64,000 nt of DNA from Cyanidioschyzon merolae (Eukaryota). A program made the translations under genes and the position numbers. The DNA lies in the NCBI GenBank assembly GCA_000091205.1, contig AP006491.2. One strand, 5' to 3'. This document shows positions 1 to 60,200 of this stretch, in pieces; positions within the stretch are counted from its first letter, which is position 1, and every line of letters begins with the position of its first letter. The notes beneath the pieces are model-generated. The model had not been told where the DNA came from, searched no databases, and was given only the letters and a program-made list of their open reading frames with translations.

Positions 1-964
1 ATGTGACTTGATGTTGCACATTGGAACCAGGTTGAAGCGCTTCCCCATTAGGACAGCCTTCCGTCTCTCCCACTCTTCATTGTTTTCCCCACTCAGCTTC
101 ATCTCCGCTTTGCGTTCGAGTTCACGGTCCAAAAACACGAAGTACCTCAAGATGAGGAGGCAGTATCTTTCCTTATCTTTTTTCAACTCTGATACCTTTT
201 CTGATGGATTCACCAGCCCCAAGACTGCACGGTGCTCTTGTATAACCGCACGGATCACAGAAGCTTCATTCGTGCTCTCGTTTGACGCCTTCTTCTCGAC
301 AAATTCGACCTCATCTTCACGCTTGCGATCTTTCATGATGCCATTGATAATCGCCCATTTTCCATTGCGGGATAGGCCCGGGTAGAGTGCAACCACGGCG
401 CGTATTAAGAAACGTTCGAGGTTCGTTGTCAAATGGTTCTTCAGGTTCGTGATGCACTTCATCGCCCCATAGTCGTAAATATCGCGGTCACCCCTGCATC
501 GAGTACCGTTGAAGCTGTAGAAGGGATGTTTTTCGTGGAGGGCACGCACCAGCTAATGTTCCGTCCGCGCTCTCTCTGTGCCAAGCATCAGGTGACGAAT
601 AAACGTCTTGTCGAGAAACTCGTCCGCAACCTCGACTATTTCCATGTGCGTCACGTCTTCGTACATCTCCCTCGCGCAATGCATCAGTTCTGACGACGCC
701 TTGACAATACTCTTGGAGTACGAATCGAGACGTTTTTTGATAGCGTCTCGCAACTCTTCCCTGTAGGGATCCTTGATATGTCCAAGAAGGAAGGATTTCA
801 CCGCCTTCTCGTTGTACAGCCGTCTTTCTTGCCGCCTTCGACGTAGGGCCTCCCCCCTTCGGTTCCTCTTCTCTTTCTTTTCTTCTGGACTCGGCACTGT
901 TTTTTGTTTTTTTTCTGGCAGCCGGCGACCTTGGGCCCCCAGGATCGTGCACTTTCTTTTCCAT
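1..964 (-). pseudogene. Truncated, frameshifted second copy (N-terminal part) of the TnpB/Fanzor-like gene. It continues beyond the left window edge.
   Basis: Minus-strand ORFs 488..964 and 553..897 encode [11 protein letters not shown]... and ...[41 protein letters not shown]...RTEH. These are near-identical to the N-terminus of the 5739..7913 gene. A 1-nt insertion in a poly-A run shifts the frame relative to the other copy. Plus-strand ORF 8..385 is the antisense of the continuing reading frame, matching ORF 6317..6694(-) of the other copy. Confidence 0.7.
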
Positions 965-1225
965 AACTTTCCTTTTTAGTATTTTTGAGAAAGAACGCTC
1001 TTTGAACCCTTCTGTTATATGCTGCGAAAAAACACTTGACTAGACTTGTTTGAGAGCTGACACAAAAATGAACTGAAAACTATACGTTGCCAAGATCTCA
1101 ACGGGAATCCGACTTTTACAGCTGAACAACACGCTACTGATCTCAATCGAGTTTCCCTTCAACGGCGACATACGCGTCGTGTCTCATGCCTGCCAGATCC
1201 CCCAGGTGCACTCACCGGGCGCGAC
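1..1225. repeat. Left arm of a ~1.2 kb inverted repeat. Its partner is at 5478..6700.
   Basis: The reverse complement of 1021..1225 matches 5478..5690 almost base for base (for example gctgcgaaaaaacacttgactagacttgtttgagagctgacacaaaaatgaactgaaaac). The coding parts match the ORF pairs 8..385(+)/6317..6694(-) and 488..964(-)/5739..6149(+). Confidence 0.85.
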
Positions 1226-4200
1226 TCTTTTTTTCATAGACAAGACGTTTACTTGTGCCCGCATTCTCCGATTGTGCGCTTTTTCTTTTCTTACTTTTTT
1301 TTTCAGTGTGCGGTGACGTATCCATCAACCCCCTACCTCCATGTTACATTACTTGTACTTCGTTTTGGATATTCTGGTCGTTTCATACGTCCTATCGTGT
1401 GCCGAGCCTGCCGAAAGCGACAGCAACGGCGCCTAAAGCGCCGGTGCGGTCGCTGCACGGAGACAGAACGGCTTTTCCATACCACAGAGGGCGTCGGCTC
1501 GAGGCATGGTTCACCCGACGTAGAATCGGGTCTCGTCGTCAGTTTGAGCTCGGATAGTCTGCGGATGCAAGCTTGTCTTCGCTGCACGATACGCTGGAGA
1601 AACTTGGCTGTTAGGATACATCCTAGGAGCCGCCTCTCTCCTTCCTGGTCATGCATGGAATGCGTTGTTGTCGGTTGGCAATGCGAGTTTGTGCTTGACA
1701 CCCACCACTGTGGGTAGGCGCAGAAAGCGCACTGGGCCCGTGTGCGCATCCGATACGCTGGACCTCATGCCTAGAACGTAGCATGTGAGTTTGTTCGCCA
1801 CTAATGAGCGCTGAGGCTCGGTTAGCGGACCATCAGTTACCAGTGCTACACTCCGAGTGAGTGTCCGGCCTTCGACAATCACGGTGATGTCCAGCTGCTG
1901 CTGTCCCCCAAGGAGCTCGCTGCGCTCCTGCTTCCAGCGCGGGCAATGTAGGCCTAAATGTGTCAGCGTCTCGGGTATCTCGTCTCGACAGCAGGGACAG
2001 TGTGATTCCCAGTGCGATTCCAGTGTTCCTATACGGCTTAGAGCCGGTGCTGCCAGCCGGAAGCCACCAACGCGGATTTTGGCGAGCCACTGGGTACCTC
2101 GAGCAAGTCCCGGGAATTCCAGCCTCCTACCAGTACTTGCATGTGTATGCTAGGTTGTAGTTCCGGTATAGAGTCAAGCCGGCGTTACTGGCGCGACTGG
2201 TTCCGTGTATACGTTCCCATATGGTTGTTTGGACCGTTCGCTTGAGGCGGCGGGAGCCTTGTGCATTTCTGGGGAACGATTCGAGCGCATTTTCGCCTAA
2301 GAGGCGCTTCAGCCAAATATGCGTTGATTTCATCCAAGTGTTCTTGCGGTGCGTTGGGGTTTGCATGAAACTCCGACTGAACCAGGTGCGCATGGTGGGC
2401 CCTTTGGCCCATATGCGTGCCCGGCAGCCTGCTGCTATCGCTTCTGTCGAGGGTATTTGGAGTTCAAGTCCGAGTGCCAGCGCGGTGGTTGCTCTGCTCT
2501 GCACTGAGCATCAAACAACGACAACGAGTCGCATTGCCCTGTTGGCGGCTGTCTGCGGACGCGAGGCATTTGTGTGCTTCATGCCGCACCACCCAGCACC
2601 CCAGGTCGCAGGCTGGATGATACACATCCTTCGTGCGCTGGTACGAATTGCTATGCAGATAGAGGGGTCGGATGGGACTGGGCGTGCGATCGCTGTACGT
2701 CTATGCATCTTGGCGATCATCTCGTCAACGTGTGCGTTTTCGTCGAGCGTCGGCGTTAGACAGACCCCCAGGTAGCGATAGTTTTCCCCGATCGGAATTT
2801 CCTGATTCTGCAACCGCCACGAGCGATTGCGAATGCGCTGCGAGTCTCCATGGATGGCCATGACGCCGCACTTCGATGCTCCTACGTTCATCTCCCAGCG
2901 ATCGGCCCAGGCGCTGGCTTGTTGCATGCTACCCGCAAGCGTTTCCGGGGCGGGTGCCAACAGCACTATATCGTCCGCAACTAGACGGCCTGCGAGGCGG
3001 TTCCTATGTGAGGGCTCCTCATCGGGCATCTCCCCAGTCTATCCACGGCACCTCAAGCCCGTATTGTCTGCAGTTTTTCAGCGGATCGTTGATGAAGATG
3101 TTGAAAAGGAGCGGGGATGCGCGCTCGCCCTTTTGTAGTCCACGGCGTATTCTTATACAAGGGGTTCTTGAGCCGTCGCCCAGTCGGATGCGCATCCACG
3201 AGTCTGCATAGAGCGCACGGAAGAACGCTAAGCACTTTCCGGAGACTCCGGCTCGTTCCATCTTCAAAAATAGAGCCTCGTGCGGGACCGTGTCAAAGGC
3301 CTCTTGGAAGTCGATGAAGCATACGTAAGTTGGTTGTTGGCCGCTAATGGAGCGACGTTGCGCCACTTCAATGAGGGTCAGGGCATGGTTCATGCACTCA
3401 TCGCGGCTCCGGAATCCAGCCTGTTCTGGGGCGAAGAACTTGCGTTCCTCGAGGCCTCTCTGGATCCGGTTCGTGAGGTTGGCGCAAAAGTAGCTTCATG
3501 ATTGACGGGATGAGGCCGATAGGCCGGTAGATGTTCATGTCTTTGTGTGTAAGAGTCCTTTTTGAGGATCGGTACGACCTCGGCAGTCCTCCGTACATCT
3601 GGGATGCACGCTTCTTCAAACATGCGTTGAATGAGCTCCAGAAGGCGTTTGCATAAGATTGTGTCAGGTTCATCTGGTATCGATGGTGTCCCTGTTGTCT
3701 CGTATTTTGGGGTCACCAGTTTCATCCACTCCGCAGGGATACCGTCGATGCCAGGTGTTTTGCGGTTGCTTGAGCATAGTAGGGCCCGAACAGATTCAGG
3801 CCAGAAGATTGGCTCGTTCCATTCCGGTACCGGGTCGAGGCGCGGTAGTTCTGCAGCATATTGGTGCCAATAGATTCGGTCTTGGCAGTTCCCAGTTGCG
3901 TCTTCATGCAGCTCTATCCCGTGGTCCGTCCAGGCCTCATTCACTGAGGCACGCTCCGTCCTCAGCGCTTCCTTATAAACGATTGATGTGAGCCGCAAGC
4001 ACTTTTTTGGTGGGTCCAGTCTCGATCGAATGTAGCGCTAGGTCTCATCTTCGTTGGTGCCCTCGAGCATAAATTCCGTCAGGGAGTCGATTTTGCGGTT
4101 TCGATCCTCTCGTTTGTCTTCTCTGGAACGTTTCTTCTTTCTTTTGATAGCGTCCTCATGTTGCGCCTGTAGCGCCGGTAGCGCTGCCTTCGCTTCCTTG

Positions 4201-5477
4201 TCTCCGGCGTTGGCGCGTATGGCGGTGCGGTTGACGATCTTATAGAGTCGGTGGCATTCATCATTCCGAGTTTTGGTACGTCATTCCAGGTACCGCGGTT
4301 TGCAACTGTTGTGTTCTGGTGCAAGCAGTCCCAGTTCTCTGGCAATCTTCTGATTCCCATCTACATACTCGCGTGCCAATTGGTCAAAAGATTTGTATGC
4401 ACGGCTTTTCGGATCTTCAGCGCTGTGAGCAGGTGCCTGGGTTTGGCGACGTTTTTCTTGGGTTCCCGCTGGGGTGCCCTTTCGGGGGATCACTTGCGAT
4501 GGGCTCGTTTGGGGGGGTCTTCTTTCTATTCTTCTGTTTTTTCTTGTCGGTCTTCCTCGTCTTCTTCGGGCTCTTTCCTGAGCTGCTTTCTCTGGATATT
4601 TTGCATCTAAGTGGATCATGAGGTTTCTGTGCCTCCTTCTCCGTATCTGGTTGGGTCTCTTTACCTAATGCAGAGTCCTCCACTTGTATCAGTTCTTCGT
4701 TACAGTACTGGTAATTCGAAATCTCGTCGTCTAGTATCGAGGCCGTCCCACAAATATTCCATGATACGAAACCTATCGAGTCATAGCGCATACGGGAATA
4801 GGAATAGCGCTACGGTACTCCAGAGATACGTTGTCGATTTAGATACACGCTTCACGAGGTGTGTGAACGTACATGCCACCATTGCCCTCTGCATTCCAGT
4901 CGTTCATTGAGTGTCTGCCGCAGCGCTAGCGCGGAATCAGAAGTACATTAGTAAAGGTCGATTCGAATGCGACCTTTATCTTGCCGGACGCGTGTACCTC
5001 TCCTCAACCACAGGGGATACTCTACGAACCAACCTTTCAGCGGCTTCGTATCCGCTCCCCAAATACATAGGCGGGCAAGTCGCTTACTCCACCTTCGACA
5101 GTGAACATACTGGCAGCCGTCTTCAAAAGTATCCGCCGAGATTGTTTCCAAAGTTGAGGTAGGTACGCAAGGTAGGAGGTACAACTGAGCCCGAGTTCGA
5201 GGATAGATCCAGTATTTGCGCCGAAACCTGCAGCGTTGATTCGGGAGGGGCGAATGACTGCTCAGAACTCTCGTCAATATTTTCTGGTGCTACTGCCTCC
5301 GCCCCTCCGTTCGTTGCGGTCAAGGTCCCTGGCGTGGGCTTCCTTCCCCGTCGCTTAAACACCCCGCGTTAACCCATTTTCAGAGCTTCTCTGGAAAATC
5401 TAGACCTCTTAGGCGAGGGTGGTGTGTGGGGCTTTTAAGATAGTGGTTCTTTGATAAATAGTTTGCGACTAGTTTGC
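1226..5477 (-). mobile_element. Degenerate non-LTR (LINE-like) retrotransposon with a frameshifted reverse transcriptase. No intact endonuclease is recognisable.
   Basis: Minus-strand ORFs 3390..3998, 3019..3393 and 2511..3029 carry RT motifs in the expected order: KTPGIDGIPAEWMKL, RRTAEVVPILKK, YVCFIDFQEAFDTVPHEAL, QKGERASPLLFNIFINDPL, LVADDIVLLAP. An A-rich tail lies on the minus strand at ~1226..1300, exactly where the inverted-repeat arm ends. A possible APE-like start (SWNICG) at ~4740 sits in an otherwise unrecognisable segment. The 5' boundary is approximate. Confidence 0.75.
2511..3998 (-). pseudogene. Reverse transcriptase domain of the LINE-like element, split over three frames.
   Basis: RT motifs 0-5 are seen in the order expected on the minus strand. 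Frameshifts fall between ORFs 3390..3998, 3019..3393 and 2511..3029. Confidence 0.75.
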
Positions 5478-6700
5478 ATCACGCTCGGTGAGTGCACCTG
5501 GGGGATCTGGCAGACATGAGACACGACGCGTATGTCGCCGTTGAAGGGAAACTCGATTGGGATCAGTAGCGTGTTGTTCAGCTGTAAAAGTCGGATTCCC
5601 GTTGAGATCTTGGCAACGTATAGTTTTCAGTTCATTTTTGTGTCAGCTCTCAAACAAGTCTAGTCAAGTGTTTTTTCGCAGCATATAACAGAAGGGTTCA
5701 AAGAGCGTTCTTTCTCAAAAATACTAAAAAGGAAAGTTATGGAAAAGAAAGTGCACGATCCCGGAGGCCCAGTGTCGCCGGCTGCCAGAAAAAAACAAAA
5801 AACAGTGCCGAGTCCAGAAGAAAAGGAAGAGAAGAGGAACCGAAGGGGGGAGGTCCTACGTCGAAGGCGGCAAGAAAGACGGCTGTACAACGAGAAGGCG
5901 GTGAAATCCTTCCTTCTTGGACATATCAAGGATCCCTACAGGGAAGAGTTGCGAGACGCTATCAAAAAACGTCTCGATTCGTACTCCAAGAGTATTGTCA
6001 AGGCGTCGTCAGAACTGATGCATTGCGTGAGGGAGATGTACGAAGACGTGACGCACATGGAAATAGTCGAGGTTGCGGACGAGGTTTTCGACAAGACGTT
6101 TATTCGTCACCTGATGCTTGGCACAGAGAGAGCGCGGACGGAACATTAGCTGGTGCGTGCCCTCCACGAAAAACATCCCTTCTACAGCTTCAACGGTACT
6201 CGATGCAGGGGTGACCGCGATATTTACGACTATGGGGCGATGAAGTGCATCACGAACCTGAAGAACCATTTGACAACGAACCTCGAACGTTTCTTAATAC
6301 GCGCCGTGGTTGCACTCTACCCGGGCCTATCCCGCAATGGAAAATGGGCGATTATCAATGGCATCATGAAAGATCGCAAGCGTGAAGATGAGGTCGAATT
6401 TGTCGAGAAGAAGGCGTCAAACGAGAGCACGAATGAAGCTTCTGTGATCCGTGCGGTTATACAAGAGCACCGTGCAGTCTTGGGGCTGGTGAATCCAGCA
6501 GAAAAGGTATCAGAGTTGAAGAAAGATAAGGAAAGATACTGCCTCCTCATCTTGAGGTACTTCGTGTTTTTGGACCGTGAACTCGAACGCAAAGCGGAGA
6601 TGAAGCTGAGTGAAGAAAACAATGAAGAGTGGGAGAGACGGAAGGCTTTCCTAATGGGGAGGCGCTTCAACCTGGTTCCAATGTGCAACATCAAGTCACA
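5478..6700. repeat. Right arm of the ~1.2 kb inverted repeat. It is the 5' flank plus 5' coding region of the Fanzor-like gene.
   Basis: Reverse complement of 1..1225. It includes ~260 bp upstream of the ATG at 5739. Confidence 0.85.
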
Positions 6701-7913
6701 TTTTGTGACTGTCGACTCCAGAATCCTTTACGGCATCATGAAGGGGATCAGTCCGGAGTTCAATGTTAGCAGGGAGGAATTCTCCGGTGAAAACCGGGAG
6801 ACGTCTTGGAAGAGTCTCTTCGATTTCAAACGTCTCAAAGCCAGCAAACAAAAGGTACTTACTGGGTTGATCGAAACCGATGGAGTAGCCTTGTGTATAC
6901 ACTATCGGCGGTTGAAGAGAGATCGTCCAGTCCTGCCCTCGGCTGCGCCCGCGACGAAGGATGAAGATAAGAAGGAAGCGGCTCCTGTAACGCAGGAGGT
7001 GGAGGATAGTGACTTTCTCGTTGACGCGGCGAAGGATGAAGATAAGAAGGAAGCGGCTCCTGCGACGCAGGAGGTGGAGCATAACGACCTTGTCGTTGAC
7101 GCGGACCCTGGAAACACAAATATCATAACCATCGCTTTGCCCAGGCGTGTGGAAGATGATACTGATGGTAACTTACGTCAGAAAGACATGCGAATTTTGA
7201 GCTTCTCGAGAGCGAGATACGATCGAGAATCGGAAATCATGAATGCAAGGAAGAAAACTGAGACATGGAATGCAGGAATGAAGGAGCACCTGGAAGCTTT
7301 GAGCGAGGTGACGAGCCGAGGAGCGGACTTTGAAGCTTTTTGGAAATTCATGGAAGTTCGCATGGCGCATTGGGATGCCCTGTGGAAAGAGTATACAAAG
7401 CCCCGGTGGGCTCGTCTGCGTATGAACTTGTATTGTGGGAAGCAGCGGGCGTTCGCGAATTTGTTCAATGAGTTGAGCGCCTTGAAGGAGGATGGGAGTC
7501 AGAGGCTGGTAGTGGCTTATGGAGCAGGGCGCTGGGCGTCGAAGAAAGGCACTACGCCAGCTCCAACTACGAGGGTGCACAAGGAGTGCGCAAGGCGTTT
7601 TGTTACAATACCTGTAGATGAGTTCCGAACATCGAATACAAACCACGAGCTGGGATGCACACCCCAGAGAGTGGAGATGGAAAAGTGCCAGAGGAGCCCT
7701 GAGGAATTTGCAAATTACGGACCGCTGACGGAGGAGCAAATGGAAAGGAGAGCGAAAGTGCGAGGGCTACTTGCACTATTAAGTACAACGAACGATGGCA
7801 AGAAACGTATGGAGTTCGTGAATCTTGACTTTAATGCCGCTATCAATGTAAGGAGATGTGCGGTGCTGGAAAGTAGACCTCCAGAGTGGACACGAGAGAA
7901 CTTTTTTGGATAA
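5739..7913 (+). CDS. TnpB/Fanzor-like RuvC-domain nuclease (eukaryotic IS605 OrfB homolog), ~724 codons. The frame is interrupted by a single in-frame TAG at 6147..6149. It reads as an N-terminal 136-aa basic/NLS-like ORF 5739..6149 plus a core ORF 6153..7913 whose first ATG is ~6240.
   Basis: A RuvC-I-like motif [17 protein letters not shown] is at ~7086..7135. A RuvC-II-region block [28 protein letters not shown] has Ala where TnpB has the catalytic Glu, as described for Fanzor1. The TS motif plus Zn-finger remnant [15 protein letters not shown]...KC follows. The RuvC-III motif [10 protein letters not shown] is at ~7821..7850. The N-terminus is Lys/Arg-rich (RKKQKT...[17 protein letters not shown]). 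Confidence 0.6.
6956..7105 (+). repeat. 75-bp tandem duplication (x2) inside the Fanzor-like ORF.
   Basis: gaaggatgaagataagaaggaagcggctcctg(t/c)(a/g)acgcaggaggtggag... occurs twice in tandem. It encodes [25 protein letters not shown] then [25 protein letters not shown], and runs into the RuvC-I motif. Confidence 0.85.
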
Positions 7914-8134
7914 CCTCCCAAAGTCGAACTATATGAGAAAAAGTTGGAAGCAGAAGTAGGTGGCCGGTCGAAAAAGGCGCGGAGGCGCCTGCGCGTCGAC
8001 TGGAAACGTTTCGTGTAAGGCGCGGTTTTCCCGCCACTACTGTAAACTGCCGACGTCGTTCGACTTAGAGCGGCGTTGGCGGCTGTCCGTTCAGGGTGGC
8101 CTCCTGTGCGAGCTTGGCGTCGATACTTGCACAT

Positions 8135-32963: not shown

Positions 32964-33192
32964 GTCCTGACACGGAGAGTTCCTCGACTAAGCGCCGCTG
33001 GAACGCACCACAGCTCCTGTCCAGCGTCTCGTGGTTGTTCCCAACCGCACCCGCCGTAGAACAGCTACAGCGCTAAACGTCACAAACAGAATAGTCACAG
33101 CGAGCGCCGCCGCTGCTCCGAGAATAAAGCCGAGTTGAGCGTGCTTTTCGATCCCAGAAACGAAAGCGATCCGGAGGTGGCGCCGCACCCGC

Positions 33193-33400
33193 ACACATAC
33201 ATACACGCATACACACATACACACATACACACATACACACATACACACATACATACATACACACATACATACACACATACACACATACATACATACACAC
33301 ATACACACATACACACATACACACATGCACACATACACATATACACACGTACACGCATACACACATACACACATACACACATACACACATACACATACAG
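33193..33400. repeat. (ACACATAC)n/(CATACACA)n microsatellite, ~200 bp.
   Basis: Direct reading of the sequence. It yields the artefactual ORFs 33095..33787(-), 32988..33485(-) and 33135..33581(+). Confidence 0.95.
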
Positions 33401-34753
33401 ATTGATAGAGACAGATAGATGGAGTCCGAGAGAACTGCCAGTGCCGCAGCAGGCACAGGCGTTCATGCTGCTGCCTTCTGGACACGTGTGGATACAGGGC
33501 CTCTCATCAGCATCGTTCTGGGGTCCAGGAAGCCTCCGCATGGCGTATTCAAGTGCGAAAACGAGAGAGGTGGTGTTCTGAGGATGAGGAAGCGTTTTTG
33601 CGCTTTCAGCGAAGGCGATGTGTGGCGCCCAGTCCTGTGATTTCCCGCATGGAGCACAGCGGCGCACGGACGCCCCAGTGCCTGGGGAGCGCTCCATGCA
33701 TGCCGTACTTTCGGTACAAGGGCGGCGCTGCGGATAGCGTCGTTCGCGCATCCGCGATTGCCTTGAACTCCATAGAAAAGAGGCCAAACTCCTCCAGCCT
33801 TGGCGAGGTCTCGACGAAAGCGGCTACAGCGCCGTGGACATGCGGACACTGGAGCTGTGCAGGGGTTACCATGAACGCTGCGCTGACCTGCAGATTGGGA
33901 GCGGACGCTTTGCACCAGGGCCTCGCCAAATTCTATGCAGTGCAGCATCGATGTATCGATCCGGACTTGTAGGGGTGTGGGATTGCTGTCCGTATCCGGG
34001 GAAGCGACCGTCGTGCGGCTCCGCGCTTTACCGTTTCCCTTTCGTATCTTTGCCTCGGGGTTGAGGGCGAGATCGATCGAACAGTATGGCTCCACCCGAT
34101 GCCGAGTTTGCTGTGCGCGTGCATTGCACTCCTGGATGCGTTGCCCTAGACGCCATCACGCAGAGAAAGAACAGCTCTCCGCAGCCTCAATAGGCGTCGT
34201 CTCTAGACGGGTCATGAGCGGTACCCATTTCCCGATACGTCGCGCTCGCTTGTGCATACTGGGCGAAGTCGTCATCGGGCAGACGGTGCTCGCTGACTCG
34301 CGTTGCTATCGCGTTCTTCGGACCGTTCTGCATGCGCACTGAAAAGGCAGGCTCCCGAACAATCGCGTCTTTCATGTTTAAGCTTGGAATCGAGGATAGG
34401 TCTCTTGTCTGCCGATGCTCGCTGAAAAGTGGTCAAATCCGCAGCGTATTACAATGCCATTGCCCATGAGTGCATGCCTCTCACACGCGACACCCTGAAC
34501 GTATGCAGACAGCATGTTATCCTGCGCTTTGCCATAGTCTTTGTATTCCGTGCATATGCGGAACCAATGAAAATGACTGCCAAAATGCTCTCCATGAACG
34601 AACCGCATGCCACGGCACGTGAGGGGATCACAGGCTATCTTCGCCCCCGGTGCCTGTCATCCGATGCGGATGCATATCTTCAGAACGCTGGTGCGCAGGG
34701 AGGCTATGCTGCAGCTTCTCCAAAGGGGCGATCTTTCAACCTATTTCGCAAGT

Positions 34754-51774: not shown

Positions 51775-53047
51775 GTTTCCGGTACAACAAGGCAGTCGTA
51801 CCAGTGCGTTAAAGTATAGTGCACCAACTTGTTTTGTCGTCATCGCCAATGCGATACCGTTTTAGCATTGCGTTGGCGATCGGGAAGAGGTATAGAAACA
51901 AGAGGAAGCGTATGCGGATGTTGCTCATGGTAGAGGTTCTGTCACATGGACAGGTGTCGCACTATTTCGAGGGCGCGAGATCCACGTTTTCGATCAAGAA
52001 TGCGATGGATTCAATTTCTTGCGTCGTGCGCGGGGTTTGAGGAACAGCAGAGATCCCTCTCTCTTGGTACGTATGCCTTTCCGGAATCCACTCGATGAAC
52101 CCAGCTTGATGATGGGTTTCACGGGGCGAAATTGCTCCACGAAGCATCATCTCTTCCCTGGCTGGCTGTTGACCAAGTTGACAGCGAATAATTCCAGGAT
52201 AGGAGGTCTCATTTCGTCGACGCAGCCGAGAAGAGCGCGTCTTGAGGAAACGCGGGCGCTCGGGTTGCATGCGCATGCGACGGGACACCAAGATGCCGCT
52301 ATACTCAGGCAGCTTCAATACGTCATCCCATGATACTCGGGGATGTGCCTAGTCAGGGTCTCTTGCATGCTGCGGATACATGCGCGACTTCCGCAACGAG
52401 GCGCTGGATGACGCTCGTCTTTGTTTTGCTTCGCTTTTGGCAGGAGACGCGTCAGTCTCGCATCGACGGACCGCTGGGCGTGCATCCCCATGAACCGGAC
52501 GGGCGCATGCGAGCCAACGTGGACATCAGCCCGCGAGATAGACGGCGTGCATCGACGAGCGGAATAAAGCCTGCAAGTACACCAGCACACTTGTTCATGA
52601 AGAAGCGTATACGTGCGTATACGCGTGAGCGACGGCCTGTTGACGCGCACTGGTGCACACCCGTGGGCCCCATACACGCTGACACGAGCGTACAGCGATA
52701 CACCTCTGGTGTGTGTGTTTGTATGTGTGACACTGGGTACACGTCTCTGTTGGCCTCGACGTCTCCTAGTGTCCGTTCCCGCACGCACAAGCACGATCGC
52801 AGCGTTTCGACTCGTGAACACACATATCGCTAGCACGACATGCTTGCCTAGAACACAGTTCATAGCTGCCCATTCCCTGATCGTTGGCGTATGTTTGCAA
52901 AGCGGCGCATCGCATGACATTGCATCATAACGCACAGGGCGTTGCGCGATGATAATGACACGTCTCCGACCGAGACAACCCGGTACGCTGTACTGCGTCG
53001 CGCCTGCAAAGCGATGAATACTGAATCCTGAGTCATGAGTCATGAAC

Positions 53048-53215
53048 GATGCGACGCCACCATCAGCGATCGATCGATTGATTTGACATAGTGTGGCGCT
53101 GCGTGCGCGCGATGCGGCGCCACCATCACCGATCGATCGATTGATTTGACGTAGTGTGGCGCTGCGTGCGCGCGATGCGACGCCACCATCAGCGATCGAT
53201 CGATTGATCTTTGAT
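53048..53215. repeat. 63-bp tandem repeat, ~2.7 copies.
   Basis: The unit gatgcgacgccaccatcagcgatcgatcgattgatttgacatagtgtggcgctgcgtgcgcgc is repeated head to tail. Each unit contains a near-inverted repeat gcgacgccac...gtggcgctgc. Confidence 0.9.
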
Positions 53216-53839
53216 ACTGAGCGCTGTCCTGCAGGTGCACACCGGCGCTGGTGATAGCCTTCTACTTGTGGTCGGTGTAGGTCTTCTTGTCGCCCGTTCG
53301 GAACAGTGTTGAAACTCATAAAAGGTGCACTGTGTTGGTGAGGCAAGTTACTGGGCAGCGCGACTCGGAAAGGTCCTTTGCGATGTGCCGTCTGCAGCTG
53401 CGGGGTGCCGGCTGACGAGAAGCGCTGCGCTCGCAGGATCGAGGCTGGCTACCTGGCCTTGTTTGCTGTTGACAGCTAGCCCTGCGGAACAGGCCTCTCG
53501 CGAGCGTGTGGGCGAGAGCTGTACCGGTGGTCGCGATACCGCGCTTGACAGTTCGAGGGCGCGTCTTGAGCGTGAGCGAGTGATCGAGTCAACGGGTCAA
53601 TCAGGGCACACACCGCTATTGTCTGCTGCGCGGGACGCCTATTGAGTTGCAGGGGTAACCCGGAGTCGAACGGCATCAGACAGTCGTCAACCTTTCCCCA
53701 GCAGCAGCGGGCGTGCGAGCAGCACCGTGTCCCGGCACTCTGTCGGATTCCTCGCTCGGGAGGCGTTCGAAACGCACGCACCGCGCTTTGCCCCTGAGCG
53801 GCGTTTCCGCGCACATCCACAGACGCAGCGTGAAGCGCA

Positions 53840-56966: not shown

Positions 56967-57116
56967 GTACGAGGCCTATGTTGGAGCAACACACTGTATA
57001 ATCGAGGGTGTTGCGCACAAGCCTAGCGGCGCTCAAATACTGAATACGTGTGCATACCCAAAATCGCAGGCGATAAGTGTCGGTCGATGCGCGTCACGCA
57101 ATACGCGTCATGCGAT

Positions 57117-57265
57117 CTGCGCAGTGCGATGTGCGTAGGTCGATACGCATAGTGCGATGCGTGTAGTGCGATGCGTGTAGGTCGTTACGCGCAGTGCGAT
57201 GCGTGTAGTGCGATGCGTGTAGGTCGATACGCGCAGTGCGATGCGTGTAGTGCGATGCGCTCATG
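57117..57265. repeat. Minisatellite: a ~42-bp higher-order unit (x~3.7) built from ~14-bp subunits agtgcgatgcgtgt.
   Basis: gcgcagtgcgatgcgtgtagtgcgatgcgtgtaggtcgatac is repeated head to tail. It translates as the repeated HYTHRTARIDLHAS peptide in the artefactual ORF 57094..58059(-). Confidence 0.9.
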
Positions 57266-60200
57266 CAGCCTCGACAGCAGAGGCGCTGAACACTGGCAGC
57301 GGTGCTGATACTAGCCTTCGCAATCAACTGCATACCAATGCTGGTCATCAGGAACGATGCGCTGGCTGCTCGCAGCGTCAAGTGCTCCTGGCCGGCACCG
57401 AGCTGCTGGCGAGCATCCGTGCGCGCGCGCAGTCGACCGCCGCGACGCCACCGAGGCCTGCCAGTGTCCAAGTTCCAGACGCGCCGCTCAGGCGACCGCG
57501 GCCTCCTGCAACGTCCGAACCTCCCCTGGGGGCACAGATACGGGACCCCGCGGCACACGCGCCTCGCCGGAAGGCAGGTCCATAGGAGCGCCCACCGCGC
57601 CACCTCTGGTGACGGATACCGCTCCAGGTACAGGAGGCAATGGGGTTGCGGCACGCGTAGCAGCGCAGCGGATCCATTTTTAGGCTCGTGCTTGTGAATG
57701 CGCTCCCGAGACGCCGACGAGTGCCTCTGAACTGCATGCAGTCGATGTGCTTGCGCGCTCCCGACCTGCTCCCGAGTCGACAGCAACGCCAATCCTCTGG
57801 CTGGAAAGCAGCGCACTCGGGGCGAGGTATTCCAGCGGCAGAAGTGTGTGCCTGCATAGCGCCGTTGCTGCAGGCGCGACACCGCTGCGCCGAATCGCCC
57901 ACTGTGCTGATGCCGGTCCCGCTGCAGTCCTGCGCTTCGGAAAAGGCGCCCAGCCTCATCTTTGATGCCGTTCCTCATGAGCGAGTGCGACCAGAGATAG
58001 CACTGCACGTCACCGCAAGAAACATCACTGCATTGGCCTGCTGCACGAAAATCAGCCAAAATCGCGCACAGTCCGCGTCGCTACACCATTTGCGGACTCC
58101 ACGCGTGCCTTGGGTTCTGGAAATGTGCATGCTACGCGCCGAGGCATCCAGGTCAGCGCTGGCAAAGGCCTGCGAACCAACCGACAGCCGGTGCTACAAA
58201 CGTGGGCGCAGGTCGCTCATGGGCATGCGCTCGCGTTCGTGACGCTTCTCCAGTCGGTGTCGCGCGCTGCTCGTCATCGCGCACACGTTCTCGCGTAACC
58301 GCTGGAGGCGTGGATCGCAGCTCGCCATCACCGTAGTCGACAGCGAACAGCTCCCGCTCCACGAGTGTCGCCCGCCAGGGCATCGGCGCATTCATACGAT
58401 CGCAAAGCGCCGCGAACCCGCACAGCCATGTCAAAGAAACGGATCGCCTCCACTTGCCGAACTCGGGCGTGCAAATTAAGGTTTAGGTCTCTGCCCAGTG
58501 TCACGAACAGCAGCTTCTGCAGGCTTTCTCTGCGACTGCCTCCTTTTCCCATTTCTTTTCCGGATTCACATACGCCAATATCTCCGTTGCTTGTAACTCC
58601 GTTTACGCTGTCGAAGGATGTTGATGGCAGCGTTCAAGCTCGATTTCGACGCTCCGGATTGTTCTTGACGCATTTCGTGTACAGGCAGAAGTTGCGAACG
58701 ACAGCCGGCTTTGCCATTTTCATCTTCCTTGCATACATACTCGATGCCCTTGGACGCAGCGGTGTATCTTGACTGTGGCCAGATGGTCGCGAAGGTACCC
58801 CAAACTTCGCATTCCGGGTGCTGCTGTGTATCGGCGAAGCGATCGCTGCGTCGCTCGGGAAATGCCGGTGACAGGCAGAGAAAGCTTTCACCGATGCCGA
58901 CCGCGTTTCAGCTGCCGCTGTCGTATGCGGCGATCACGTCTTTCTGCTGCATGATTCTTTTGAAGAGCTATCTGTCTGCTGCATACGCAAGCGCAAACTG
59001 TTCCATATGATGGACAATCTGTGGAAGCTGATTTTGTCCATGACGAAGTAACCATCAGAAGGATACCTCAGACCGGAGTACAAATCGATAAATCTTGATC
59101 CGTCTACGTTCTCTTCGTTCAGCGCTACGACGCACTCTGCACTGGAAGCGATCGCTGCGGTGACTGGTCTCCAAGTCCAATAGTCTTTTCTACTGTGAGC
59201 AGAACAGACGGGAGCCCTGTGGCAGCATGCACCGCGACGAGTATGAAACTGTTCGTGAATGCCGTTTCTTTGATGACCATAGAGAGGGGCGGATTTCTCC
59301 TTCGAACCAAGTCGATACTTTTTCTTGATAAGTGCTCTGTACTTTCGACATGTTGTTATGAACAAGTCGTCAGGGGCCCAAGTCCTATAGTTTACGTCGT
59401 TCATCCAGCGCCGCGAATCGCTGCGCGCATGAGTTGCATGGAAACAGAAAGATCGAACAGTTGAAGAACGCGTGACTTGAGCGTATTGCGCTTGAGGAAA
59501 ACAGAAGAATAGAGGCTTGTATTTATGAATCGAATAATGATTTAGGTCATTTTTACCAATCCTCATTCGATGTTTTCCTGAATCATCTTGTTCCCGATGA
59601 CGTTCCAAATTCCAACCGCCAAGTGTCAAAAGAGTCACCCCGAGAACACGACCGGGAATCCCTAAACGAAATATGAATCCATAAGCCCATATTGCTGCAC
59701 TTTCATGTCAAGGCTATCCCTGGAGAGCATGCTCGGAACAAAAAATCTCGTGGTACGAACAGAGCGATCAGTGCTGTGCCACTTTAATCTCATATGCGCT
59801 GATAGACTTTCACATGCATTGCGTTCCACACCCAGGGGAATGGCATCAAATGCTTCTTCACGGTTGATAGTGGATGCGTTCGAAGTGCGCTCAGTTGAGG
59901 AAACAAAAATTCAAGGGAAACTTATGGACATGAAAGTCGGGGATCCTGGAGCCCGATCATCGCCGAGCGCCGACTAAAAACGAGAAAACCCTCTCCTCGC
60001 CGATCGTCGAGTGAAAAAGGGCAAGCGACAAAGAAGAAGAGAAGGAGAGCTTGACGAGAAAAGTGCTTTGCCCGAGGAGACAATGACGAGAATGCAGTGG
60101 CCATGAGGGCACCAGCTTGAGGACGCCTTGCACTGGTGAGTTCAAACAGCGACAATGAACGCAAGGAGTTCGTGAACCGAGACTTCACCGCCGCTATCTA

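What the first reader, a model, noticed from the sequence alone, without database searches (positions are those of the whole stretch)
6144..6155. Single in-frame TAG shared by both Fanzor-like copies splits an NLS-like N-terminal ORF from the nuclease core
In the intact copy, the frame 5739..7913 is continuous except for one TAG (6147..6149; ...[17 protein letters not shown]...). The divergent left copy has the same stop after RTEH. A stop shared by two copies that have since diverged by substitutions and indels suggests one of three things: it is functional (two separate ORFs, or programmed readthrough or recoding), it is removed as part of a small non-canonical intron, or both copies descend from an already inactivated master. 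The first ATG after the stop (MKCITN..., ~6240) would give a ~557-aa TnpB-like core lacking the basic N-terminal region.
Basis: seen in the sequence. Interest (0 to 1): 0.5.

Follow-up and report, generated by a model that had tools for sequence, protein, structure and literature searches.

The report
Premature stop in decaying Fanzor1 copies
The in-frame TAG is real, but it is an ordinary G-to-T nonsense mutation (Glu to stop) carried by one young lineage of a mostly decayed Fanzor1 transposon family in a cyanidiophyte red alga; related copies have a sense codon there, so it marks gene death rather than recoding, an intron or a designed two-gene split.

Summary
The TAG at 6147-6149 exists and is the only stop in frame 5739-7913. 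The same stop is in the inverted left copy (minus strand, 553-555). The two copies are 98.4% identical, so they are recent duplicates and not long-separated lineages.

The protein is a genuine Fanzor1. A family profile hits solved Fanzor1 structures (E = 1e-20 to 1e-7). An AlphaFold model of a close relative matches them over its full length.

Across 83 related copies the homologous codon is GAG (57), GTG (15) or another sense codon (7). TAG occurs only in the window's own lineage. The region upstream of the stop is conserved in relatives at about 30% identity and folds confidently (WED strand plus REC helices), so the stop cuts a folded domain.

TAG ends normal host genes. No RNA structure follows the stop, and homologs are collinear across the site, so there is no intron.

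The family is largely dead: 2 of 73 near-full copies are intact. The window's "terminal" TAA (7911) is a second derived stop (CAA in 48 of 70 copies).

The TAG sits on a ~0.6-kb near-identical tract shared among copies, which fits duplication or gene conversion.

Verdict: ordinary pseudogenisation, low interest.

The parts
5476..8078 (+). Right copy of a ~2.6-kb Fanzor1 transposable element. It carries a single ORF, no transposase and no terminal inverted repeats.
   Evidence: The homology boundaries of dozens of copies converge on 5475-5478 (left) and 8066-8079 (right).
1..1224 (-). Left, inverted copy of the same element. Only its 5' 1.2 kb is present because the window edge cuts it. It is 98.4% identical to 5479-6701.
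   Evidence: Inverted repeats I1/I2; alignment.
553..555 (-). The same TAG in the left copy.
   Evidence: CTA on the + strand; alignment.
907..914 (-). A8 homopolymer in the left copy (A7 in the right copy at 5789-5795). The extra base frameshifts the N-terminus of the left copy.
   Evidence: The run is A6, A7 or A8 among relatives.
5739..6146 (+). ORF1, the N-terminal 136 codons of the ancestral Fanzor1. It holds a basic NLS-like stretch ([14 protein letters not shown]), a predicted WED beta-strand (AVKSFLLG) and the first REC helices, including the conserved F-I-R-H-L-M-L-G block.
   Evidence: Translation. Conservation in relatives at ~30% identity: 15 of 91 near-invariant columns lie here. 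Confident fold in the model of relative P0002.
6147..6149 (+). Derived nonsense codon TAG. The ancestral codon was GAG (Glu), one G-to-T change away.
   Evidence: Codon states in 83 copies: GAG 57, GTG 15, ATG 2, AAG 2, GAT 2, CAG 1, TAG 4, with all TAG in the window's own lineage.
6150..7910 (+). Remainder of the Fanzor1 frame (587 codons): the rest of REC, WED, and RuvC with ADPG (7098-7121), AYGAG (7515-7529; Gly at the canonical RuvC-II position), VDEFRTS (7614-7634; alternative Glu) and [10 protein letters not shown] (7821-7850; RuvC-III Asp).
   Evidence: Profile hits to PDB Fanzor1 structures.
6240..6242 (+). First ATG after the stop. This Met is conserved across the family, but in the model it lies inside a helix (M146 within helix 140-171 of P0002). 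It is not a domain boundary.
5800..6400 (+). TAG-bearing haplotype tract. It shows 0-4 mismatches per 100 nt among all TAG copies, even where the rest of the element differs by 12-30%.
   Evidence: Binned mismatch profiles.
6950..7099 (+). In-frame 75-nt tandem repeat, two units here and variable in number among copies. It is a predicted disordered linker before RuvC-I.
7911..7913 (+). TAA, a second derived premature stop. The ancestral codon was CAA (Gln).
   Evidence: CAA in 48 of 70 copies, TAA in 10.
7914..8018 (+). Ancestral C-terminal tail (34 codons, basic, then the shared stop TAA at 8016-8018). The TAA at 7911 cuts it off in this copy.
   Evidence: Tail peptides are conserved in many copies. 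pN/pS is 0.53 in frame against 0.76 and 1.10 out of frame.

Best explanation
The TAG is a simple inactivating nonsense mutation. A GAG (Glu) codon in a loop of the N-terminal REC region of a Fanzor1 gene became TAG through one G-to-T change. This happened recently, on one sequence lineage of an old and mostly degenerate Fanzor1 transposon family in a cyanidiophyte red alga.

Both copies in the window carry the stop, as do the orthologous copies in sister strains. They all derive from that one mutated sequence, either by local duplication or insertion, or by gene conversion between paralogous copies.

Expected consequences (inferred, not shown): translation from ATG 5739 ends after 136 residues. 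The downstream 587 codons are not expected to yield a working nuclease. A product started at ATG 6240 would lack the first WED strand and several REC helices. A second derived stop at 7911 also removes the C-terminal tail.

The copies may still be carried along or mobilised in trans, like other non-autonomous members of such families.
For: Shown:
(1) The stop is derived and lineage-restricted. 79 of 83 homologous copies have a sense codon, and TAG occurs only in the window's lineage. The DNA reads CAT TAG CTG against AAT GAG CGG/CTG in relatives.
(2) All ORF1 relatives at >=89% identity stop at the same residue. All relatives at <=79% identity read through.
(3) The TAG-bearing copies are very young. 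The window copies are 98.4% identical. The sister strains differ at the adjacent SMC gene by dS 0.004-0.009.
(4) The upstream region is part of the protein. It is conserved in relatives at ~30% identity and is confidently folded in the model, where the TAG-equivalent residue lies at the start of a helix in a region with pLDDT above 90.
(5) The family is Fanzor1 by profile and by fold. In Fanzor1 the N-terminal REC region carries residues essential for TAM and DNA binding (PMC11423790).
(6) Decay is the norm in this family. Only 2 of 73 near-full copies lack stops and frameshifts; the rest have 1-11.
(7) This copy has a second derived stop at 7911, and the left copy has a frameshift.
(8) TAG is a normal stop in this genome, used by SMC and four other long ORFs.
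Against: The window's right copy is among the best-preserved members of the family, with only the TAG inside 725 codons. Its catalytic D/E/D residues are intact.

ORF2 gives dN/dS of 0.27-0.7 between TAG-bearing copies. Those differences fall in conversion tracts and not as scattered point changes, so they do not measure selection on these copies.

The TAG tract appears in several mosaic contexts (L087, L089, L090). That could mean the stop-bearing sequence is spreading. Short-read assembly chimeras across the identical tract cannot be excluded.

No expression data were available.
Confidence: 0.87

Rival explanations
1. Functional split. The stop is tolerated because a 557-aa (ATG 6240) or 586-aa (GTG 6153) N-terminally truncated Fanzor is made and works, perhaps together with the 136-aa ORF1 peptide.
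For: ORF2 is open for 586 codons with the catalytic residues intact. The Met at 6240 is conserved across the family. The upstream 114 codons evolve under weaker constraint (omega ~0.5-1.4) than the downstream part (~0.3-0.6).
Against: The Met lies inside a predicted helix. The missing part includes a conserved beta-strand, several helices and 15 near-invariant positions. REC residues in this region are essential in solved Fanzor1s. In a eukaryote, a 136-codon upstream ORF makes downstream initiation inefficient (general knowledge). No other family member shows such a split. The C-terminus is also truncated.
Confidence: 0.05
2. Programmed or leaky readthrough of UAG gives low levels of full-length Fanzor, acting as a dosage throttle on a genotoxic nuclease.
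For: The stop is followed by C (UAG-C), a context generally regarded as relatively leaky (own knowledge). The frame is open on both sides.
Against: The stop is not conserved: relatives that read through this site have sense codons. The downstream 120 nt fold less stably than shuffled controls, z = +2.0. TAG terminates ordinary host genes. The mutation is too recent for a readthrough signal to have evolved.
Confidence: 0.04
3. The TAG lies in a small intron that is spliced out.
For: Many GT/GC...AG pairs span the site and would keep the frame (152 candidates). A GTGCGT...CTACAG pair lies just downstream, but it does not include the TAG.
Against: Homologs with a sense codon are collinear, residue for residue, across the site, with conserved blocks on both sides. 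Any in-frame intron would delete conserved coding sequence. All host genes in the window are long uninterrupted ORFs. The nearest named relatives are cyanidiophytes, which are known to be extremely intron-poor (own knowledge). The candidate count is what dinucleotide chance gives.
Confidence: 0.02
4. The TAG is a sequencing or assembly error.
For: None specific.
Against: The same base is present in both window copies and in independent assemblies from several samples.
Confidence: 0.01

Closest known systems
Fanzor1 RNA-guided endonucleases (SpuFz1 8GKH/9CEU-9CEZ, PpFz1 9CF0-9CF3, GtFz1 9CER-9CET)
   Same: The family profile matches them (E = 9.9e-21, 3.6e-13, 1.2e-7). The model of the close relative P0002 aligns with them over its full length (Foldseek E ~1e-15, TM 0.60/0.75). 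Shared features are the RuvC-I DPG motif, Gly at the canonical RuvC-II position with a downstream conserved Glu, the RuvC-III D-x-N-A-A-x-N motif, and a basic N-terminus.
   Different: Only 12-14% sequence identity. No CxxC...CxxC zinc ribbon in the TNB region. A variable in-frame tandem-repeat linker lies before RuvC-I. The window copy is interrupted by two derived stops. The omega-RNA was not demonstrated.
CMe-1A, the Fanzor1 element family of Cyanidioschyzon merolae (Bao & Jurka 2013, PMC3627910)
   Same: Related host group (cyanidiophyte red algae). Elements of ~2.6-3 kb that carry only a Fanzor1 ORF, without TIRs or a transposase. An old, multi-copy family (~80% identity to consensus) in which only a few copies keep an intact ORF.
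   Different: Direct sequence homology to CMe-1A could not be tested because the Repbase consensus was not available. The host here is a different lineage that is unsequenced as an isolate: its GPN2 protein is only 56% identical to Cyanidiococcus.
Ordinary transposable-element pseudogenes and non-autonomous copies
   Same: Lineage-specific nonsense and frameshift mutations, inheritance of a defect by daughter copies, and mosaicism from gene conversion between paralogs.
   Different: Nothing material. This is the category the finding belongs to.

Membership tests
Fanzor1 (eukaryotic TnpB homologs) | Significant sequence homology to characterised Fanzor1 proteins | tested here: met
   Profile A4 against PDB sequences gives PpFz1 E = 9.9e-21, SpuFz1 3.6e-13 and GtFz1 1.2e-7. 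The single sequence and the shallow family profile found nothing. Pfam gave only a sub-threshold TNB hit.
Fanzor1 (eukaryotic TnpB homologs) | Fanzor1 fold (REC, WED, RuvC and TNB arrangement) | tested here: met
   AF2 model of relative P0002 (72-77% identical to the window ORFs): pLDDT 82, pTM 0.80. The top 7 Foldseek PDB hits are all Fanzor1, aligned over the full length. The window protein itself was not modelled.
Fanzor1 (eukaryotic TnpB homologs) | RuvC catalytic triad with rearranged RuvC-II (canonical Glu replaced by Gly or Pro, alternative Glu downstream; PMC10530073) | tested here: met
   The window has ADPG (Asp), AYGAG (Gly at the canonical site), VDEFRTS (Glu, conserved in 100% of 59 distant relatives) and DFNAAIN (Asp). 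The assignment of the alternative Glu rests on alignment and was not checked in 3D.
Fanzor1 (eukaryotic TnpB homologs) | Zinc-ribbon TNB domain (CxxC...CxxC) | tested here: not met
   0 of 61 aligned members have two CxxC motifs between the alternative Glu and the RuvC-III Asp. The window has only 2 Cys there. This is a property of the whole clade and not decay of this copy.
Fanzor1 (eukaryotic TnpB homologs) | N-terminal nuclear localisation signal | tested here: inconclusive
   17 Lys+Arg in the first 50 residues, including ARKKQK and RRRRQERR. Distant relatives share RKRPDR..KL..RK. No NLS predictor or localisation assay was run.
Fanzor1 (eukaryotic TnpB homologs) | omega-RNA encoded at the 3' end of the element | tested here: inconclusive
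   The 3' 160 nt are conserved up to the right end. RNAalifold on 25 copies found only three short helices at -4.7 kcal/mol.
Fanzor1 (eukaryotic TnpB homologs) | Intact, translatable ORF (needed to call this copy an active member) | tested here: not met
   TAG at 6147 and derived TAA at 7911 in the right copy. TAG plus a frameshift in the left copy.
Programmed stop-codon readthrough or recoding | Stop conserved among functional homologs, with a stimulatory context or downstream RNA structure | tested here: not met
   Sense codon in 79 of 83 copies. The downstream fold has z = +2.0. TAG is used as a normal stop.
Spliceosomal intron | An insertion relative to intron-less homologs, bounded by splice sites | tested here: not met
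   Homologs are collinear across the site with no gap. The GT..AG candidates are at chance level. Splicing itself cannot be tested here.

The most novel reading that the evidence does not exclude
The stop-bearing ~0.6-kb tract is being copied into other family members by gene conversion because inactivating the nuclease is favoured, or because low-level UAG-C readthrough gives a tolerable dose. Under this reading the TAG would be a spreading 'off or throttle switch' for a genotoxic RNA-guided nuclease, not a neutral lesion.
Probability: 0.04. Interest if true: 0.55.

Novelty: new member of a known kind. Interest (0 to 1): 0.1.

Why it matters
It matters little for biology at large. The result shows that an eye-catching 'shared in-frame stop' in a Fanzor gene is routine transposon decay.

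There are useful by-products. The work documents a multi-copy Fanzor1 family in a cyanidiophyte red-alga lineage known only from metagenomes. It identifies the few copies that remain open (the P0002 lineage). It shows that the Fanzor1 N-terminal region upstream of the stop is a conserved, folded part of the protein. It also shows that this clade lacks the usual zinc ribbon. Anyone mining these genomes for active Fanzors should skip the window's lineage.

Tried and rejected
Searches that found nothing:
- Single-sequence Pfam and PDB searches.
- The shallow family profile against the PDB.
- Rfam and tRNA scans of the window.
- A literature search for DUF8286.

Analyses that could not be used:
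- The first AlphaFold run, with only close homologs, was unusable (pLDDT 38). No fold search was run on it.
- dN/dS between TAG-bearing copies looked like purifying selection on ORF2 (0.27-0.7). I rejected it as evidence because the differences fall in conversion tracts, while the host strains differ by less than 1%.

Biases and unreliable contigs:
- The metagenome scan used peptide patterns that exclude the window's own subfamily. Its 'no TAG elsewhere' result was therefore biased. I corrected this with direct look-ups and an ORF1-only search.
- L085, L087, L089 and L090 at first looked like independent TAG-bearing insertions. Each is a mosaic that switches subfamily at the edge of the identical tract. 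L087's flank belongs to a locus whose copy has GAG in longer contigs. These are conversions or chimeric contigs and cannot be counted as transpositions.

Other negative or uninformative results:
- Intron enumeration was uninformative (152 chance candidates).
- The window copy has not lost more near-invariant residues than the open P0002 copy (25 against 24 of 91). 'Extra decay' of the protein sequence could not be claimed.

Full report
OBSERVATION

The sequence shows TAG at 6147-6149. Translation of 5739-7913 gives 725 codons with that single internal stop (...[17 protein letters not shown]...). The first ATG after the stop is at 6240 and opens a 557-aa ORF; a GTG at 6153 opens 586 aa.

The 'left copy' is an inverted repeat of 5479-6701. 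It lies at window 1-1224 on the minus strand, head-to-head with the right copy, 4.25 kb away, and is cut by the window edge. It carries the same stop at 553-555.

The two copies differ by 19 substitutions and one 1-nt indel, i.e. 98.4% identity. The indel lengthens an A7 run to A8 and frameshifts the left copy's N-terminus.

HOST AND GENETIC CODE

The window is gene-dense with long uninterrupted eukaryotic ORFs: SMC, cyclin, condensin II CAP-H2, a TAF5-like protein, FBPase, RHD3/Sey1 and a GPN GTPase. The GPN-loop GTPase is 100% identical only to JGI metagenome proteins. Its nearest named relatives are Cyanidiococcus yangmingshanensis (56% and 53%) and Cyanidium caldarium (42%). The host is therefore a cyanidiophyte red alga with no isolate genome.

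TAG ends the adjacent SMC gene and four other long ORFs, so the code is standard with respect to TAG. No tRNA or Rfam family was found in the window.

WHAT THE GENE IS

Pfam and single-sequence PDB searches found nothing. The big protein database returned 40 close homologs, all from JGI metagenomes and tagged DUF8286. An exhaustive profile search found 1,487 more distant relatives. One of them is named, a hypothetical protein of the green alga Tetrabaena socialis.

A profile including ~40 of these relatives hits the solved Fanzor1 proteins: PpFz1 (E = 9.9e-21), SpuFz1 (3.6e-13) and GtFz1 (1.2e-7). With the deeper alignment, AlphaFold modelled the full-length relative P0002 (72-77% identical to the window ORFs) at pLDDT 82 and pTM 0.80. 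Its seven best PDB matches are all Fanzor1 structures aligned end to end (E ~1e-15, TM 0.60/0.75).

The window protein keeps the following motifs:
- the RuvC-I Asp (ADPG);
- Gly at the canonical RuvC-II site (AYGAG), with the conserved downstream Glu (VDEFRTS), the arrangement described for Fanzors (PMC10530073);
- the RuvC-III Asp (DFNAAIN).

The clade lacks the CxxC...CxxC zinc ribbon.

The element spans ~5476-8078. It has one ORF and no transposase. This resembles the CMe-1A Fanzor1 family that Bao & Jurka described in Cyanidioschyzon merolae (PMC3627910).

STATE OF THE CODON IN RELATIVES

P0002, P0035 and P0039 read ...NERV... where the window reads ...H*LV.... At the DNA level the window has CAT TAG CTG and L001 has AAT GAG CGG.

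Across 83 copies in the fetched loci the codon is GAG in 57, GTG in 15, ATG, AAG or GAT in 2 each, and CAG in 1. It is TAG in 4, and all four belong to the window's own lineage.

The metagenome scan used peptide patterns that do not match the window's subfamily. I therefore also fetched that subfamily directly and searched with ORF1 alone. Every ORF1 relative at >=89% identity ends at the same residue. Every relative at <=79% identity reads through. One contig (P0365/L092) combines window-type upstream sequence with ...RKNELVHAFHEKH.... The ancestral state was therefore GAG, and TAG is one G-to-T step away.

IS THE UPSTREAM ORF REALLY PART OF THE PROTEIN?

Yes. In the 64-sequence alignment the distant full-length relatives share several blocks upstream of the stop position: a basic N-terminus, ETVVK, AI..RV...S.R...AS and F.RQL.LGT. 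Downstream of it they share HP...R..GDRNIYS.GA.KY.TN.KNHL. Of the 91 near-invariant columns, 15 lie upstream.

In the model, residues upstream of the stop form a beta-strand (28-36) and helices (46-78, 92-105) with pLDDT above 90. The TAG-equivalent residue (E115) starts helix 115-123. The Met equivalent to ATG 6240 is inside helix 140-171.

In solved Fanzor1s the N-terminal REC region carries an Arg and alpha-4 residues essential for TAM and DNA binding (PMC11423790). I infer, but did not show, that the near-invariant Arg in F-I-R-H-L corresponds to that Arg.

Constraint on the upstream 114 codons is weaker (omega mostly 0.75-1.0) than on the downstream part (~0.3-0.6). This fits a less constrained N-terminal region and does not point to non-coding DNA.

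AGE AND SPREAD OF THE STOP

The SMC-adjacent copy is present with the TAG in several sister strains. Their SMC genes differ from the window's by dS 0.004-0.009.

Differences between these orthologous Fanzor copies are not scattered. They fall in tracts, for example ~60 mismatches in 7379-7779 of the window copy. The low dN/dS between TAG-bearing copies is therefore imported by conversion and does not measure selection on them.

All TAG-bearing contigs share a near-identical tract at ~5800-6400, while the sequence on either side can differ by 12-30% (L087, L089, L090). L092 shares the left copy's flank and 5' part exactly, then switches to a GAG-bearing sequence at ~6100. L087's flank belongs to a locus whose copy has GAG in longer contigs.

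These mosaics mean either frequent gene conversion between paralogs or chimeric short-read contigs across the identical tract. Either way they are not reliable evidence that a TAG-bearing element transposed on its own. Within the window, the homology between the two copies starts at the family-wide left boundary. That fits either a separate insertion or conversion limited to the element.

OTHER SIGNS OF DECAY

Of 73 near-full-length copies, only 2 have no stop or frameshift. Nine have one, including this lineage. The rest have 2-11.

The window's terminal TAA (7911) is CAA in 48 of 70 copies. Those copies read on for 34 codons to a shared stop at 8016-8018, and the tail shows frame-specific constraint.

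The window copy has not lost more near-invariant residues than the open P0002 copy (25 against 24 of 91). This is consistent with very recent inactivation.

RIVAL READINGS

- Intron. Homologs are collinear across the site. The 152 in-frame GT/GC..AG pairs are what chance gives. Host genes here have no introns.
- Readthrough. The stop is not conserved. The downstream RNA is less stable than shuffled controls (z = +2.0). TAG is a normal stop in this genome.
- Functional truncated protein. This would start inside a helix and lack conserved WED/REC elements.
- Error. Excluded by independent assemblies.

CONCLUSION

The TAG is a recent GAG-to-TAG nonsense mutation in a Fanzor1 element, inherited by both window copies from one already inactivated sequence.

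It is a new member of a known kind (a Fanzor1 transposon pseudogene) and of low general interest.

Noticed in passing
window 7911-8018: The apparent natural stop of the Fanzor ORF (TAA 7911-7913) is itself derived. 48 of 70 copies have CAA and continue for 34 codons (basic tail ...GGRSKKARRRLRVDWKRFV) to a shared stop at 8016-8018. The tail shows frame-specific constraint.
   Followed up: partly
window 7379-7779: The right copy differs from its orthologs in sister strains by ~60 mismatches clustered in this 400-nt tract, while the flanks are about 99% identical. This looks like a gene-conversion tract imported from another family member.
   Followed up: partly
window 6950-7099: An in-frame 75-nt (25-aa) tandem repeat lies between WED and RuvC-I. 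The window has two units, and relatives appear to carry more (about 4 in P0002 and 5-6 in P0010, by reading their sequences). It is predicted to be disordered.
   Followed up: partly
window 7614-7850 and alignment A5: This whole Fanzor1 clade, including a Tetrabaena socialis relative, lacks the CxxC...CxxC zinc ribbon in the TNB region that SpuFz1 and PpFz1 have (0 of 61 sequences have two CxxC motifs).
   Followed up: partly
window 5789-5795 (and 907-914 on the left copy): The length of this A homopolymer varies (A6, A7, A8) among copies and strains. A second A-run just downstream also varies. Each change shifts the N-terminal reading frame. Some of this variation may be sequencing error.
   Followed up: partly
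window 1228-2480: Another repeat family is found directly next to the 5' ends of several Fanzor copies elsewhere (L001, L005, L073, L055, L009), in varying orientation. This may reflect nested insertion or a target-site preference.
   Followed up: no
window ~2895-4791 (minus strand): A degraded reverse-transcriptase (RVT_1) element lies between the two inverted Fanzor copies. Part of it (3878-5478) also flanks a Fanzor copy in L046 and L085.
   Followed up: no
window 7928-8078: The 3' non-coding end of the element is conserved up to a sharp right boundary (blocks such as CTATATGAG, GGCCGGTC, GAGGCGTCTGC, GCCACTACTGTA). This is where an omega-RNA would be expected. A quick RNAalifold gave only weak support.
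   Followed up: partly
L084 ~1434-3935 and the junction at ~3931: In one sister-strain contig the right copy is 5'-truncated and abuts a different, 85%-identical inverted Fanzor copy that has CAG at the stop position. This is either a rearrangement or a misassembly.
   Followed up: no
window 33151-33461, 53047-53235, 57056-57279: Tandem arrays with periods of 8, 63 and 14 nt, unrelated to the finding.
   Followed up: no
whole window: The host appears to be a cyanidiophyte lineage without an isolate genome. Its GPN2 protein is only 56% identical to Cyanidiococcus, and exact matches occur only in JGI metagenomes.
   Followed up: partly
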